Assembly (NCBI GenBank): GCA_930990515.1
Contig: CAKNPS010000001.1
Coordinates: forward strand, 103,280 to 167,279
Direction of reading: 5' to 3'
Length of the DNA stretch: 64,000 nucleotides
Source: an uncultured Clostridia bacterium
GTDB taxonomy: Bacteria > Bacillota > Clostridia > Christensenellales > UBA1242
Shown piece by piece: positions 30,307 to 54,916 of this stretch. Each line of letters begins with the position of its first letter. Position 1 is the stretch's first letter. The notes below the pieces were generated by a model, which was not told where the DNA came from, did no database searches, and saw only the letters and a list, made by a program, of their open reading frames with translations. A program made the translations under genes and the position numbers.

Positions 30307-30885
30307 TTATTTTTCTTCTTTCTTCTTTTTTCTTTTATGCTTTTTCTCTTGTCGCTTTTTTCTCATTCTATTAAAGAAACTTGCCTCTAAATAAGCTCCC
30401 GTTACAATGGCTATTAGCTCGCAATTTTTAAGAGCATAAGTTTTCATAATCGCCTTACAAAAAATGGTGATACCGGCAATTAGAGAACTTACAAGACAAG
30501 TTACAAGTAGATTCAAGTTGGCATCTTGAATGTTCATATTAACCACCAAACTGACTCCGCCTGCCCCACTTAATATACCACAAATATCGCCTACAACGTC
30601 ACCGCCAAAAGAAGCCACCTTGTCCGCTCTTTCACATAGTTTTACAGCCATAACATAGCCATTTTCATTTTTAAACTTATCTAGTTGTTCTTTATTTATT
30701 GAAGTGAACGCCACTGCAACCATATCAAAAATAACACTGACAAAAACAAAAAAGACAATCACAAAGATAGAGAAAAAAGGCGAAAGAGAAGGCAATAAAC
30801 TTTGTGAAACAAGTGAAAATATGATTGATAAAGAAATTGACAAAATAAAAACCTTAAAAGCCCACTTAGTCGAATTTTTATTCAT
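30307..30885 (-). CDS. hypothetical multi-pass membrane protein with a poly-Lys C-terminal tail
   Basis: Four or five TM segments and a C-terminus RMRKKRQEKKHKRKKKKEEK. There is no SD, and TAAAAT lies 5 nt upstream of the ATG. Confidence 0.55.
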   Translation of the reverse strand: MNKNSTKWAFKVFILSISLSIIFSLVSQSLLPSLSPFFSIFVIVFFVFVSVIFDMVAVAFTSINKEQLDKFKNENGYVMAVKLCERADKVASFGGDVVGDICGILSGAGGVSLVVNMNIQDANLNLLVTCLVSSLIAGITIFCKAIMKTYALKNCELIAIVTGAYLEASFFNRMRKKRQEKKHKRKKKKEEK

Positions 30886-30943
30886 AAGGTATTTTATTCA
30901 ATAATGATTATTTTTATGAAATAATGCTGATTTTAGCGAGACA

Positions 30944-31032
30944 GTGGGCGAAGAAAAATCTCGCAAACTTGCGAGATTTTGACTGCCTATGGGCAGTCAG
31001 CGAGAAAAAACTTTTTCTCGCTCTTCGCCCGC
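30944..31032. other. GC-rich 89-nt four-way-junction (cloverleaf-topology) palindromic element; includes the probable polA terminator
   Basis: The closing stem GGGCGAAGA (30946-30954) pairs with TCTTCGCCC (31022-31030). It encloses three abutting perfect hairpins: AAATCTCGCAA/TTGCGAGATTT (30956-30979), TGACTGCC/GGCAGTCA (30980-30999) and GCGAGAAAAA/TTTTTCTCGC (31000-31021). On the minus strand the first hairpin is followed by TTTTTCTT. Confidence 0.7.
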
Positions 31033-31052
31033 CAACAACTTAAAACTCAACA

Positions 31053-33545
31053 TCACTTACAGTCGTATAAATTATCTCCCACTCCAACATTGACAACAAG
31101 AGGAACTCTAAAGGTCTTAACATTTTCCATACAACGTTTTACAATTTCTTTAACCTTTTCAAGTTCTTCTTTCTTTACGTCAATGACAAGTTCGTCGTGA
31201 ACTTGCAAAATGATATGACTTTCCAAATTCTTGAGTTCTCTAAAAGTTGCAATCATTGCAAGTTTAATGATGTCAGATGCTGTGCCTTGAAGTGGCATAT
31301 TCATTGCAACTCGCTCGCCAAATTTTCGGACATTGAAGTTGGAAGAAGAAAGTTCTGGAATCATTCTAATTCTTCCAAAAACCGTTTTCGCATAGCCATT
31401 TTCTTTTGCAAACTCAACATTTTTATCCATAAATTCCTTGATTTTTGGATAACGCTCAAAATAACTATCAATATAGATTTTTGCTTTCATTCGAGAAGTT
31501 TTTATGTTTTGAGATAAACCATAGTCACTTATACCATAAACAATTCCAAAGTTAACAGCCTTTGCATCTCTTCTCATACCTGGTGTCACTTTTTCAATTG
31601 GCACATTAAAAATTTCACTTGCAGTTTTTGTGTGAATGTCAATGCCTTGTTGGTATGCCTGCATCATGGAATTTTCTTCTGCCATATTTGCAAGAAGACG
31701 AAGTTCAATTTGGTTATAATCGGCAGATAAAATAAGCCCGCCATCAAATTTAGACACAAAAATTTTGCGAAGATTTTTTCCTTCTTCATCACGCGTTGGA
31801 ATGTTCTGCATATTAGGTTCAGAACTCGACAATCTCCCAGTGTTTGTAAGGGTTTGGTTGAAAATTGTGTGAACAACATTTCCACGAGTTTTACAAAGGT
31901 CTTTATAAACATTAATGTATGTGCTTTTAAGTTTATAAACTTTTCGATAATGAATAATTAAATTAACAATTTCGTGGTCAAAGCGAAGTTCGTCTAAAAT
32001 GGCAAAACTTGTTGAACGTTTCTTGTTGTTAAATGGCACAATTTGAAGTTTATCAAACAAAATATTTGCCACCTGTTTTGGAGAATTTATATTGAATTTT
32101 TCGCCTGCCATTTCATAGATTTTGTCTTCAAGTTCTTTTATTTCGCTAGATATTTTTTCGTCTATTTCGTCTAATATCTGCTCATCAATTTTAAAGCCTT
32201 TTTCTTCCATTTCTGCCAAAACTTCAACAAGTGGAATTTCAATGTTGTTATAAACAAAATCAACGCCTTTTTCTTGAATCAATGAAGAAAATTCTTTTTT
32301 CAATTTAAAGAAATCTGCAGGGTTCTTAGAAAGATTGTTAGAAACTTGTGTAAAGCAAACATATCTTGCAATTTCAAGGTCAAAAAAGTTCGTAAGTTTT
32401 ATGCCAAGTCGTTTTAAAATTTTCATATCTTCTTTTGAAGACAAAGTTATTTTTTCAATTTTCTCATCTTCAAAAACATTTTTAAGTTTCTTTAAAACTT
32501 CATTTAAGTCGATAAAAGAAGAAAATAGGTTTGGATTTTTTTCAAGAAAATAAACCTTATTTTCATTAGGAGAAAACATAAGTTCATGAATGCTATATGA
32601 AAATTCCCCTTTGATTTCCTTAATCATTTCGTCAATTTTAGAAATATCATCAACTGAAATATGTTGAACTTCATTGTTTTCTTTCTTTTCTTCGCCAAAT
32701 ATATCATCGCGTTTTGTGAAAGAATTAAAGTTCCAATATTCAAAAAATTCTCTCACTTCATTTGAGAATGGAAAACTATATTCACAATCACTTAAATTAA
32801 ACTCAATTTCACAATCAGTTTTAATTGTGGCAAGTTTCTTAGAAAGATAAGCATTTTCCTTACCATTTTCAAGTTTTTCTTTAAGTTTCCCAGTGATTTT
32901 ATCTAAATTCTCATAAACACCATCTAAATCGCCATAGGTTTGAAGAAGATTTAGTGCAGTTTTTTCGCCAACTCCGCTCACCCCAGGAATATTGTCCGAA
33001 CTATCTCCCATAAGGCTTTTAAGTTCAATAATTCCAGAAGGAGCAAACCCATATTTTTCTTTAATTGCCTTTGTGTCCATAACTTCAAGTTCTGTCACGC
33101 CTTTTTTTGTGAGCCAAACTGTTGTATTTTCGTCTACAAGTTGAAGTAAATCTCTATCCCCAGAAAGCAAAATGTTTTGATTTTGCGAATGTTTAGACAA
33201 AGTTCCAATTATGTCATCAGCTTCAATTCCTTCTTGCTCAAAAACTTTTATGCCCATTTTTGAAAGCATTTCCTTAATGAAAGGAAATTGTTTTTTAAGG
33301 TCAGGTGGAGTTTCCTTTCGTGTGCCTTTATAATCAGCATAAATTTCATTACGAAATGTTTTTCTTGCGTGGTCAAAAGCAACTGCAATATAGTCAGGCT
33401 TTTGCTCAGTTATGAGTTTAATTAAAATATTGGCAAAACCAAAAATCGCACCAGATGGCTGTGCTTTAATATTAGATAAATAAGGCATTGCATAGAACGC
33501 CCTATTTGCTAAACTATTTCCATCAACAATTAAAAACTTTTTCAT
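31053..33545 (-). CDS. polA: DNA polymerase I
   Basis: N-terminal 5'-nuclease domain, Pol motif A ADYNQIELRLLA, motif B RRDAKAVNFGIVYG and motif C QVHDELV. Confidence 0.96.
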   Translation of the reverse strand: MKKFLIVDGNSLANRAFYAMPYLSNIKAQPSGAIFGFANILIKLITEQKPDYIAVAFDHARKTFRNEIYADYKGTRKETPPDLKKQFPFIKEMLSKMGIKVFEQEGIEADDIIGTLSKHSQNQNILLSGDRDLLQLVDENTTVWLTKKGVTELEVMDTKAIKEKYGFAPSGIIELKSLMGDSSDNIPGVSGVGEKTALNLLQTYGDLDGVYENLDKITGKLKEKLENGKENAYLSKKLATIKTDCEIEFNLSDCEYSFPFSNEVREFFEYWNFNSFTKRDDIFGEEKKENNEVQHISVDDISKIDEMIKEIKGEFSYSIHELMFSPNENKVYFLEKNPNLFSSFIDLNEVLKKLKNVFEDEKIEKITLSSKEDMKILKRLGIKLTNFFDLEIARYVCFTQVSNNLSKNPADFFKLKKEFSSLIQEKGVDFVYNNIEIPLVEVLAEMEEKGFKIDEQILDEIDEKISSEIKELEDKIYEMAGEKFNINSPKQVANILFDKLQIVPFNNKKRSTSFAILDELRFDHEIVNLIIHYRKVYKLKSTYINVYKDLCKTRGNVVHTIFNQTLTNTGRLSSSEPNMQNIPTRDEEGKNLRKIFVSKFDGGLILSADYNQIELRLLANMAEENSMMQAYQQGIDIHTKTASEIFNVPIEKVTPGMRRDAKAVNFGIVYGISDYGLSQNIKTSRMKAKIYIDSYFERYPKIKEFMDKNVEFAKENGYAKTVFGRIRMIPELSSSNFNVRKFGERVAMNMPLQGTASDIIKLAMIATFRELKNLESHIILQVHDELVIDVKKEELEKVKEIVKRCMENVKTFRVPLVVNVGVGDNLYDCK

Positions 33546-54496: not shown

Positions 54497-54916
54497 TTAT
54501 TTATTTTCATCAAGATAGTTTTGTAAGATTATCTGAGCGGAAACTTTATCAAGAAGTTTTTTCCTATCTTCCCACTTGAGTCCTGCTTCCTTCAAATATT
54601 CTTCAGCTTCAAAAGATGTATATCTTTCATCTTGATAAAAAACTTTGATTTGTGAATAATCTTCAAGAGCTTTTCCAAAATCTTTAACTTTCAAAGACAT
54701 TTCACTTTCAGTGCCATCTGCATTGAGCGGTAACCCAAGAACAATCCCCGAAACATCATTCTCTTTTGCATAAGAAGAAAGATAATTTAAATCTTCTTCA
54801 TGCCCCCGACTTTTATATATGCTATCAGCAGTAGCAATTGTCGCGGTGTAATCAGAAAACGCAATTCCAATTCTCGAATTACCATAATCAAGTCCCATAA
54901 ATCTTTTATATTGCAT
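54497..54916 (-). CDS. ruvX: YqgF/RuvX-family putative pre-16S rRNA nuclease
   Basis: MGLDYGNSRIGIAFSD...ERYTS motif; 139 aa. Confidence 0.92.
   Translation of the reverse strand: MQYKRFMGLDYGNSRIGIAFSDYTATIATADSIYKSRGHEEDLNYLSSYAKENDVSGIVLGLPLNADGTESEMSLKVKDFGKALEDYSQIKVFYQDERYTSFEAEEYLKEAGLKWEDRKKLLDKVSAQIILQNYLDENK

What the first reader, a model, noticed from the sequence alone, without database searches (positions are those of the whole stretch)
30944..31032. GC-rich 89-nt element folding into a gap-free four-way junction downstream of polA
Seen in sequence: a 9-bp closing stem (GGGCGAAGA / TCTTCGCCC) encloses three perfect hairpins of 11, 8 and 10 bp. The hairpins abut each other with 0-1 unpaired junction nucleotides and have minimal loops.

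- The element is far more GC-rich than its surroundings and occurs only once in the window.
- Two of the hairpins, plus a fifth copy of GCGAGA at 30936, share the arms GCGAGA/TCTCGC. Alternative pairings are therefore possible: 30936 with 30959, or 30971 with 31016.
- On the minus strand one hairpin followed by TTTTTCTT can terminate polA, but a simple terminator does not need the other three helices.

Possible roles are a structured sRNA or 3'UTR, a switchable attenuator for the downstream membrane-protein gene, a cruciform or Holliday-junction-like DNA site (a recombination or integration target, or a relic of a small mobile element), or a binding platform for a structure-specific protein.
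Basis: seen in the sequence. Interest (0 to 1): 0.6.

Follow-up and report, generated by a model that had tools for sequence, protein, structure and literature searches.

The report
Four-way-junction palindromic element after polA
The 89-base cross-shaped fold after polA is real and belongs to a little-known class of nested-palindrome elements that sit just behind gene ends in tiny-genome gut Clostridia; evolution keeps its shape, and it most likely marks and protects transcript ends rather than acting as a switch or a stand-alone RNA gene.

Summary
Window 30944-31032 folds on either strand, as RNA or as ssDNA, into a closing stem around three abutting perfect hairpins (z about -8 to -9.5).

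It is not a one-off:
- A covariance model built from it finds 7 more copies in two sister species (G141, G168). Three sit at the same polA 3' site; the others follow era, spoIVA and a 406-aa gene.
- These 8 copies show compensatory changes in three of the four helices.
- A fold scan of the window's own 1.18-Mb genome shows that its three most stable 120-nt windows are all closed four-way junctions. I found 10 such elements from several sequence subfamilies.
- One of them (rnc-smc spacer) is orthologous in six species, with compensatory changes in all four helices.

All copies are intergenic and lie close behind a stop codon. Each contains one A-run/stem/T-run hairpin of terminator type. Orientation varies, and is even opposite at orthologous loci. 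Nearly every pair is Watson-Crick.

I found no Rfam family, RAYT link, target duplication, or phage or plasmid match.

Best reading (about 0.5): a REP/MITE-like structured cassette that works in either orientation as a transcript-end module. A DNA-level role remains open. No transcript data could be obtained.

The parts
30944..30954 (.). Closing-stem arm (GT)GGGCGAAGA. The perfect 9 bp are 30946-30954; G30944 and T30945 add a G-C pair and a T.G pair on the + strand.
   Evidence: GGGCGAAG is invariant in all 8 family copies.
30955..30980 (.). Hairpin 'T': AAAATCTCGCA-AACT-TGCGAGATTTT, 11 bp. On the minus strand (the polA sense strand) it is followed by UUUUUCUU, the form of the genome's usual bidirectional intrinsic terminators.
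   Evidence: genome terminators are of the AAAA-stem-TTTT type. Three pairs covary among the copies.
30981..30998 (.). Middle hairpin GACTGCC-TATG-GGCAGTC, 7-8 bp. The stem sequence is invariant in all 8 copies, while the loop varies in sequence and in length (3-6 nt).
31000..31021 (.). Hairpin 'A': GCGAGAAAA-AACT-TTTTCTCGC, 9 bp. This is the most variable helix; 7 of its 9 pairs show changes on both sides among the copies.
31022..31032 (.). Closing-stem arm TCTTCGCCC(GC).
30936..30941 (.). Extra GCGAGA word outside the junction. It is not conserved (TCTTGC in G141, absent from the non-polA copies), so it is probably not part of the element.
31053..33545 (-). polA (830 aa: 5'-3' exonuclease, 3'-5' exonuclease-like and Pol A domains). 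Its stop codon lies 20 nt upstream of the closing stem.
30307..30885 (-). Downstream gene: a 192-aa membrane protein with no Pfam match, present in 61 of 61 genus genomes searched. Its start is 58 nt from the element.
30891..30920 (-). Promoter-like site (TTCATA-18-TAAAAT) ending 5 nt before the ATG of the 192-aa gene. The 45 nt between the element and the ATG are identical in three species.

Best explanation
The element is one copy of a lineage-restricted family of nested-palindrome intergenic elements, each a closing stem around three abutting hairpins, i.e. a closed four-way junction. It belongs to a wider class with the same architecture that recurs behind gene ends in this genus of roughly 1-Mb uncultured gut Clostridia.

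Shown here:
- The family exists and its helices are maintained.
- It sits just after stop codons.
- It is gained, lost and flipped between close species.

Inferred mechanism:
- It acts as a transcript-end module that works in either orientation.
- The A-run/stem/U-run hairpin terminates transcription. Here it would end the polA transcript 20-90 nt after the stop, before the promoter of the next gene.
- In any read-through or antisense RNA the whole junction forms. That very stable, coaxially stacked block would shield the upstream 3' end and the downstream 5' end from exonucleases, or offer a double-strand processing site, and would insulate the downstream promoter.
- It spreads rarely, in the manner of a REP or MITE, by a route not yet identified.
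For: 1. Fold. The fold is real on both strands.

2. Family.
- Model R1 finds 7 further copies in G141 and G168 at 60-114 bits. Three species share the polA 3' site. Other copies follow era, spoIVA and a 406-aa gene.
- A pattern scan of 185,579 species genomes finds true members only in those two MAGs.

3. Covariation in the 8 copies.
- 98.6% of cells are paired, and 11 pairs show changes on both sides.
- 0 of 500 shuffles reach the observed pairing percentage, double-change counts or covariation score. Versions with the 3' partner slid by 1-3 columns pair at only 37-57%.

4. polA orthologues.
- They show 0 substitutions in 72 stem positions, 3 in loops and many in the immediate flanks.
- The neighbouring coding DNA shows scattered substitutions.

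5. Class level.
- The three most stable 120-nt windows of the whole genome are closed four-way junctions.
- I found 10 such elements, all intergenic.

6. rnc-smc junction.
- It is orthologous in 6 species, with compensatory change in all four helices.
- This includes the closing stem: GGGC/GCCC becomes GCCC/GGGC in G119.

7. Position and terminator features.
- In all 7 tandem spacers the element lies nearer the upstream stop than the downstream start.
- Where the sister species carry the element after era and spoIVA, this genome has a plain terminator hairpin.
- Every copy has one AAAA-stem-TTTT hairpin like the genome's ordinary terminators.
- A promoter-like site conserved in three species lies between the element and the next gene.

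8. Strand signal. At rnc-smc all 5 non-Watson-Crick pairs are G.U on the sense strand.
Against: - No transcript data.
- A transcript that ends at the U-run of hairpin T would lack the 3' arm of the closing stem. Yet that stem is conserved and covaries, so termination alone does not explain it.
- Orientation relative to the upstream gene is mixed.
- Pairs are almost all Watson-Crick, with very few G.U pairs. This fits a requirement on both strands, or on DNA, better than a one-strand RNA.
- In the GGGCGAAG family the few mismatches show no strand bias.
- Templated correction of quasi-palindromes during replication could mimic compensatory evolution.
- The absence from divergent spacers is not significant (0 of 10 against an expected 19.6%, P about 0.11).
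- polA has no terminator at all in most relatives.
Confidence: 0.5

Rival explanations
1. DNA-level structural element. The nested palindrome acts as folded single-stranded DNA or as an extruded branched cruciform. It would be a site for a junction- or hairpin-specific protein (HU, RuvA, RecU, a topoisomerase or a recombinase), with roles in chromosome organisation, replication or recombination. It would also be a hotspot for rearrangement and local inversion.
For: - Both strands fold equally well as DNA.
- Pairs are almost exclusively Watson-Crick, which keeps both strands foldable.
- Orientation is free. At the era 3' and spoIVA 3' loci, G141 and G168 carry the element in opposite orientation, with a strand difference of at least 35 bits.
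- The closing stem and the middle hairpin are invariant in sequence within the family, while the middle loop varies in length. This suggests a hairpin read by a protein.
- The element lies exactly at a synteny break: polA|192-aa gene here against polA|ruvX in G030 and most of the genus. The era copy likewise lies where the downstream neighbour differs between G141 and G168.
Against: - No partner protein was identified.
- The closing-stem and middle-hairpin sequences are not shared between subfamilies.
- There are only 1-5 copies per subfamily per genome.
- Placement close behind stop codons and the constant terminator-type hairpin are not predicted by this model.
- The sense-strand G.U bias at rnc-smc (5:0) leans towards RNA.
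Confidence: 0.25
2. Selfish, essentially functionless small mobile palindrome (MITE- or REP-like). Its perfect pairing is kept by templated quasi-palindrome correction and recent copying rather than by selection. It is tolerated only where it does no harm, just after stop codons.
For: - Patchy presence and absence between close species. G081 keeps only a 3' remnant at rnc-smc, and this genome has empty era and spoIVA sites.
- Several paralogous copies in G141 and G168.
- Both orientations occur.
- Perfect Watson-Crick arms.
- Association with rearranged loci.
Against: - No target-site duplication was seen.
- No autonomous partner with the same ends was found. The only Y1 transposase gene has unrelated CCACGGG hairpins and is degenerate in G141 and G168.
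- Copy numbers are very low.
- The rnc-smc copy is retained at one locus through six species with stepwise compensatory changes.
- The polA copy shows 0 of 72 stem changes while the neighbouring coding DNA shows scattered substitutions.
Confidence: 0.17
3. Strand-specific structured RNA with a function of its own: a trans-acting sRNA, a 3'UTR-derived regulator, or a riboswitch- or attenuator-like control of the downstream membrane-protein gene.
For: - The fold is very stable and covarying.
- There is a slight excess of copies whose sense strand folds better (6 of 8).
- There is a G.U bias at rnc-smc.
Against: - No Rfam match.
- No conserved unpaired nucleotides or loops that could bind a ligand or a target. 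Loops are 3-6 nt and variable.
- Downstream genes differ between copies.
- Orientation flips at orthologous loci.
- The alternative pairings are not conserved.
- No promoter is shared by the copies.
Confidence: 0.06

Closest known systems
REP / BIME elements of Enterobacteria and Pseudomonas (repetitive extragenic palindromes, mobilised by RAYT Y1 transposases; PMC2817692)
   Same: - Extragenic palindromes placed after genes or between genes of an operon.
- The structure is kept while the sequence drifts.
- They can act as mRNA 3' stabilisers or weak terminators and bind nucleoid proteins (from established knowledge).
- They occur in both orientations and are associated with rearrangements.
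   Different: - The unit here is an 89-nt closed four-way junction, not a 20-40-nt single imperfect hairpin.
- Copy number is 1-5 per subfamily rather than hundreds.
- There is no GTAG-type 5' tetranucleotide.
- There is no RAYT flanked by the elements.
Small interspersed structured repeats and MITEs of other bacteria: pneumococcal BOX/RUP/SPRITE (PMC3049150), Neisseria Correia elements, enterobacterial ERIC
   Same: - Intergenic repeats of about 100 nt that fold stably.
- They are co-transcribed with neighbouring genes.
- Terminal inverted repeats pair in the RNA; Correia RNA is cut by RNase III (from my own knowledge).
- Presence varies between strains.
   Different: - Those elements fold as long single or modular stem-loops, have tens to hundreds of copies, and (RUP, Correia) have target duplications and IS-like ends.
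- Here there is no duplication, copy number is very low, and three perfect hairpins are nested in a closing stem.
Bidirectional Rho-independent terminators
   Same: One hairpin of every copy is an A-run / GC-containing stem / T-run, placed shortly after a stop codon. At the same positions in relatives that lack the element there is a plain terminator.
   Different: A terminator needs one hairpin. Here three more helices, including one whose 3' arm lies beyond the U-run, are conserved by compensatory change.
BoxC / PIT / TM_ECO intrastrand-triplex repeats (PMC4666352)
   Same: Short GC-rich intergenic repeats with no strand bias, linked to locally variable genome regions.
   Different: The defining three-block pattern CCCTCNCCC-N3-6-GGGNGAGGG-N3-GGGNGAGGG is absent. 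This element has no homopurine or homopyrimidine triad.

Membership tests
REP/BIME (RAYT-associated) | Short (about 20-40 nt) single imperfect palindrome as the repeat unit | tested here: not met
   The unit is an 89-101-nt closing stem plus three hairpins.
REP/BIME (RAYT-associated) | High copy number (tens to hundreds per genome) | tested here: not met
   1 copy in this genome, 4 in G141 and 3 in G168. I found 10 elements of the whole architecture class in this genome.
REP/BIME (RAYT-associated) | A RAYT (Y1 transposase) gene flanked by the same palindromes | tested here: not met
   There is one PF01797 gene (C7:11827-12183), flanked by unrelated CCACGGG hairpins. Only a degenerate copy exists in G141 and G168.
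REP/BIME (RAYT-associated) | Extragenic, at gene 3' ends or between co-directional genes | tested here: met
   All copies are intergenic: 7 tandem, 3 convergent, 0 divergent. All are nearer the upstream stop.
MITE | Terminal inverted repeats | tested here: met
   The 9-11-bp closing stem GGGCGAAG(A)/(T)CTTCGCCC is formally a TIR.
MITE | Target-site duplication flanking the element | tested here: not met
   No direct repeat is visible at the borders of any of the 8 copies. Empty and filled sites could not be aligned precisely in the AT-rich spacers.
MITE | A parent IS with the same ends | tested here: not met
   There is no other match to the element or its ends in the genome, and none in the phage or plasmid collections.
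Rho-independent terminator | GC-containing hairpin followed directly by a U-run, downstream of a stop codon | tested here: met
   Hairpin 30955-30980, read on the minus strand, is followed by UUUUUCUU and begins about 70 nt after the polA stop. The simple scanner does not call it.
Rho-independent terminator | RNA 3' ends map to the U-run | not testable with these tools
Any Rfam RNA family | Covariance-model score at or above the gathering threshold | tested here: not met
   The best hits are P14 at 23.2 bits (threshold 45) and EF0408_EF0409 at 19.5 bits (threshold 440). The only hit in the window at or above a gathering score is a T-box elsewhere.
Riboswitch / attenuator | Conserved mutually exclusive pairings | tested here: not met
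   The GCGAGA word at 30936 and the shared arms of hairpins A and T are not conserved in orthologues or paralogues.
BoxC / PIT / TM_ECO | Three consecutive triplex-forming blocks CCCTCNCCC...GGGNGAGGG...GGGNGAGGG | tested here: not met
   The consensus comes from PMC4666352. It is absent from the sequence.

The most novel reading that the evidence does not exclude
Closed four-way-junction palindromes would be a distinct, undescribed class of bacterial genome element that works as folded DNA. They would be read by a junction- or hairpin-specific protein. They could flip in place and seed rearrangements, and would thereby shape chromosome structure and gene order in reduced-genome gut Clostridia (and, according to other unchecked notes of this scan, in unrelated phyla).
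Probability: 0.18. Interest if true: 0.8.

Novelty: new variant of a known kind. Interest (0 to 1): 0.6.

Why it matters
Structured intergenic repeats such as REP, BOX and Correia are known to affect mRNA fate and genome plasticity, but all described ones are single or modular stem-loops.

Here a four-helix closed junction is the most stable local structure in the genome. It recurs in unrelated sequence versions, is held together by compensatory change across species, and sits at gene ends and at synteny breaks.

If it is a transcript-end module, it shows how very small genomes without obvious Rho-independent terminators at many genes insulate neighbouring genes. If it acts as DNA, it would be a new kind of structure-specific genomic signal. 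In either case it offers a compact natural part, usable in either orientation, that could be tested as a terminator or insulator.

Tried and rejected
- BLAST of the element against 60 relatives gave only short hairpin-arm hits. The family appeared only with a covariance model.
- Rfam gave nothing, at gathering thresholds or at permissive E-values.
- The pattern scan of genome contigs found the two sister MAGs plus chance hits in GC-rich genomes. The same pattern in metagenome contigs gave only chance hits.
- Model R2 run over 200 genomes of the order returned only ordinary terminators, so the model cannot trace the architecture once the sequence has diverged.
- The RAYT idea was rejected: the only Y1 transposase gene belongs to an IS200-like unit with different hairpins.
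- BoxC/PIT was rejected on its consensus.
- Phage or plasmid origin: no match.
- Literature searches for a four-way-junction or cloverleaf intergenic repeat found nothing specific. A survey of human-microbiome structured RNAs lists 250 'palindromic' candidates, mostly terminators, none described as this architecture.
- One search was a wasted genome search with a query that was too short.

Full report
**1. The observation**

Window 30944-31032 reads GT-GGGCGAAGA | AAAATCTCGCA-AACT-TGCGAGATTTT | GACTGCC-TATG-GGCAGTC | A | GCGAGAAAA-AACT-TTTTCTCGC | TCTTCGCCC-GC.

- RNAfold gives the closed four-way junction as the minimum-energy fold on both strands: -57.7 and -57.0 kcal/mol, z = -9.4 and -8.0, with no shuffle as stable.
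- DNA parameters give the same fold on both strands, -37.3 and -36.1 kcal/mol.
- GC is 0.44-0.49 in the element, against 0.25-0.30 beside it and 0.32 in the genome.
- The element lies 20 nt after the stop of polA (31053-33545, minus strand; Pfam domains).
- It lies 58 nt before the start of a 192-aa membrane-protein gene (30307-30885, minus strand), which is followed by infC-rpmI-rplT.
- Two independent ENA assemblies of the same species carry it letter for letter.

**2. It is not unique: a sequence family**

BLAST found no second copy in the 1.18-Mb genome, and only arm-length hits in 60 relatives. A covariance model of the single sequence (R1) then found full-length matches in two other species of the genus.
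- G168: three copies.
- G141: four copies.
- A pattern scan of the species-representative genomes names these two as 'uncultured Clostridia bacterium' MAGs BRZ_EA__bin76 and BRZ_AT__bin49. It finds no other true member. The metagenome collection gave only chance hits.

All eight copies fold to the same junction, at -50 to -62 kcal/mol.
- The closing stem GGGCGAAG/CTTCGCCC and the middle stem GACTGCC/GGCAGTC are invariant. The middle loop varies from 3 to 6 nt.
- Hairpin A is rebuilt: GCGAGAAAA, GCAGAAAAAC, GCCGTGAA, ACGAGAAAAAC.
- Hairpin T changes by pairs: AAAATCTCGCA, AAACCTCGCAA, AAAATCTCGAG.

On the model-based alignment, 98.6% of cells pair and 11 of 36 pairs show changes on both sides. 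Of 500 shuffles, none reaches the observed pairing percentage, double-change counts or covariation score. Slid controls pair at 37-57%. That alignment was fitted to the structure, which inflates the pairing percentage somewhat. The unfitted MAFFT alignment shows the same substitutions.

**3. Orthologues of the polA copy**

This genome, G168 and G141 share the arrangement polA - element - 192-aa gene.

| Region | Substitutions across the three species |
|---|---|
| 72 stem positions | 0 |
| Three loops | 3 changes |
| 20-nt spacer after the polA stop | several |
| Neighbouring coding sequence | scattered substitutions |

- The 45 nt between the element and the next ATG are also identical. They contain a promoter-like TTCATA-18-TAAAAT that ends 5 nt before the ATG. 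So polA transcripts have to end within the element's span if that promoter is to be insulated.
- The extra GCGAGA at 30936 is mutated in G141 and absent from the paralogues. The GCGAGA/TCTCGC arms shared by hairpins A and T are not kept in paralogues. The proposed alternative pairings therefore have no comparative support.

**4. The architecture is a class**

I folded every 120-nt window of the genome, 58,814 windows in all.
- The three most stable windows are all closed four-way junctions: this element, one between rnc and smc (C1:22810-22902), and one after an ABC-transporter gene (C2:199131-199218).
- With a pattern for 'closing stem + three hairpins' I found 10 such elements, belonging to several unrelated sequence subfamilies. 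One is an AT-rich type present four times.
- A second model (R2) found further divergent examples in other species: G144, G084, G082, G121, G114. R1 had already picked up another, G159. Their closing stems read GGGCTTGAAAGC, AACTATGTGAT, GGTGGCGGAG, TGCGCGCAAA and GCGCCGCA.

The rnc-smc junction is orthologous in six species: G000, G141, G168, G119, G030 and G144.
- It is absent from the other 24 species examined. One of these, G081, keeps only a 3' remnant.
- Across the six species every helix shows compensatory replacement, including the closing stem, where GGGC...GCCC becomes GCCC...GGGC in G119.
- This is the strongest evidence that the whole junction, and not only a terminator hairpin, is maintained.

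**5. Position and orientation**

- In this genome the ten elements lie in 7 tandem, 3 convergent and 0 divergent spacers. Divergent spacers make up 19.6% of the usable spacer length, so their absence is not significant (P about 0.11).
- In all 7 tandem spacers the element is nearer the upstream stop than the downstream start. Four of the ten begin or end within 10 nt of a stop.
- Each element has one long A-run/stem/T-run hairpin that looks like the genome's ordinary bidirectional terminators.
- Where G141 and G168 carry the element after era and spoIVA, this genome has a plain terminator hairpin.
- The polarity of the element, meaning the order of hairpins A and T together with the T-rich side of the middle loop, is not fixed relative to the upstream gene. 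It is 3 against 3 among this genome's non-AT-rich copies.
- At both the era and the spoIVA loci, G141 and G168 carry the element in opposite orientation, with strand score differences of at least 35 bits. The short spacers next to these copies are not alignable. I therefore cannot tell in-place inversion from independent insertion.

**6. Rearrangement**

- In G030, the closest of the first 40 genus species sampled by polA (88% identity over the 249-aa query), and in most genus members, polA is followed by ruvX (yqgF).
- In this genome ruvX is at window 54500-54898. Synteny with G030 holds upstream of polA and stops exactly at its 3' end.
- The 192-aa gene is 54 kb from polA, on the other strand, in G030.
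- The era copy likewise sits where the downstream neighbour differs between G141 and G168.
- That makes two loci, so this is an anecdote and not a statistic.

**7. RNA or DNA?**

For RNA on the sense strand:
- the position behind stops;
- the terminator-type hairpin;
- at rnc-smc, all five non-Watson-Crick pairs are G.U on the sense strand and none is A.C;
- in six of the eight GGGCGAAG copies the sense strand folds slightly better.

For DNA, or for a need on both strands:
- almost every pair is Watson-Crick;
- orientation is free;
- a transcript ending at the U-run never contains the 3' arm of the closing stem, yet that stem is conserved and covaries;
- in the GGGCGAAG family the few mismatches are split between the strands.

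Templated correction of quasi-palindromes could also produce 'compensatory' changes without selection.

**8. Known families**

- No Rfam match.
- No RAYT. The one Y1 transposase gene is an IS200-like unit with CCACGGG hairpins, and it is degenerate in the two species richest in the family.
- No BoxC/PIT consensus.
- No target duplication.
- No phage or plasmid similarity.
- Paper searches found no description of this architecture.
- Earlier unchecked notes of this scan describe the same architecture in other windows of this genome, in other gut Clostridia and in Puniceicoccales. My fold scan recovered the same-genome cases independently.

**9. Verdict**

The element is a genuine member of a structurally constrained, lineage-restricted family of nested-palindrome elements. 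It is REP/MITE-like in lifestyle but has a four-way-junction unit that I could not find described. My preferred function is a transcript-end and insulation module that works in either orientation (0.5). A DNA-level structural or recombination role is the main rival (0.25). The attenuator and stand-alone sRNA readings are not supported.

Noticed in passing
G000 C1:268778-269062, C1:352299-352447, C3:111210-111377, C7:38060-38222, C7:12377-12542 (outside the window): The AT-rich four-way junction (closing stem CTATGTGATG) is the core of a repeat unit of about 150 nt that begins and ends with ATAATATAAA. It is tandemly doubled at one locus. One copy directly abuts the right-end hairpin of the IS200-like element.
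   Followed up: partly
G000 C7:11684-12348 and C2:133518-133843 (outside the window): An IS200-like unit: a Y1 transposase gene in a 167-aa open frame (PF01797, E = 1.5e-38) flanked by CCACGGG-loop-CCCGTGG hairpins. A second, degenerate copy has stop codons. G141 and G168 keep only the degenerate one.
   Followed up: partly
L104 (G084:C3:26900-27700) and L105 (G070:C3:25470-26270): Upstream of the homologue of the 192-aa gene, G084 has four GC-rich hairpins in a row, each preceded by the linker AGTGAAG. G070 has a degenerate stretch sharing the 11-mer GCGAAGAGCGA with this element, plus repeats of the AGATCCTTCGACTACGCTCAGGATGACA type. These may be relics of related elements.
   Followed up: no
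window 30886-30920 (minus strand): The 192-aa gene has a -10-like TAAAAT only 5 nt before its ATG and no Shine-Dalgarno sequence, so its mRNA may be leaderless. The 45-nt stretch is identical in three species.
   Followed up: partly
window 31053 versus 54500-54898: The polA-ruvX adjacency, general in the genus, is broken in this species and its two sisters. ruvX now lies 21 kb away behind a different gene but keeps its own TTGACA promoter.
   Followed up: partly
window 30928-30936 with 31040-31048: There is a possible weak outer helix around the junction. The paired C-G in G141 and G168 (GACTTT/AAAGTC) is T-A here (GAGTTTT/AAAATC). It is seen only in the three polA orthologues.
   Followed up: no
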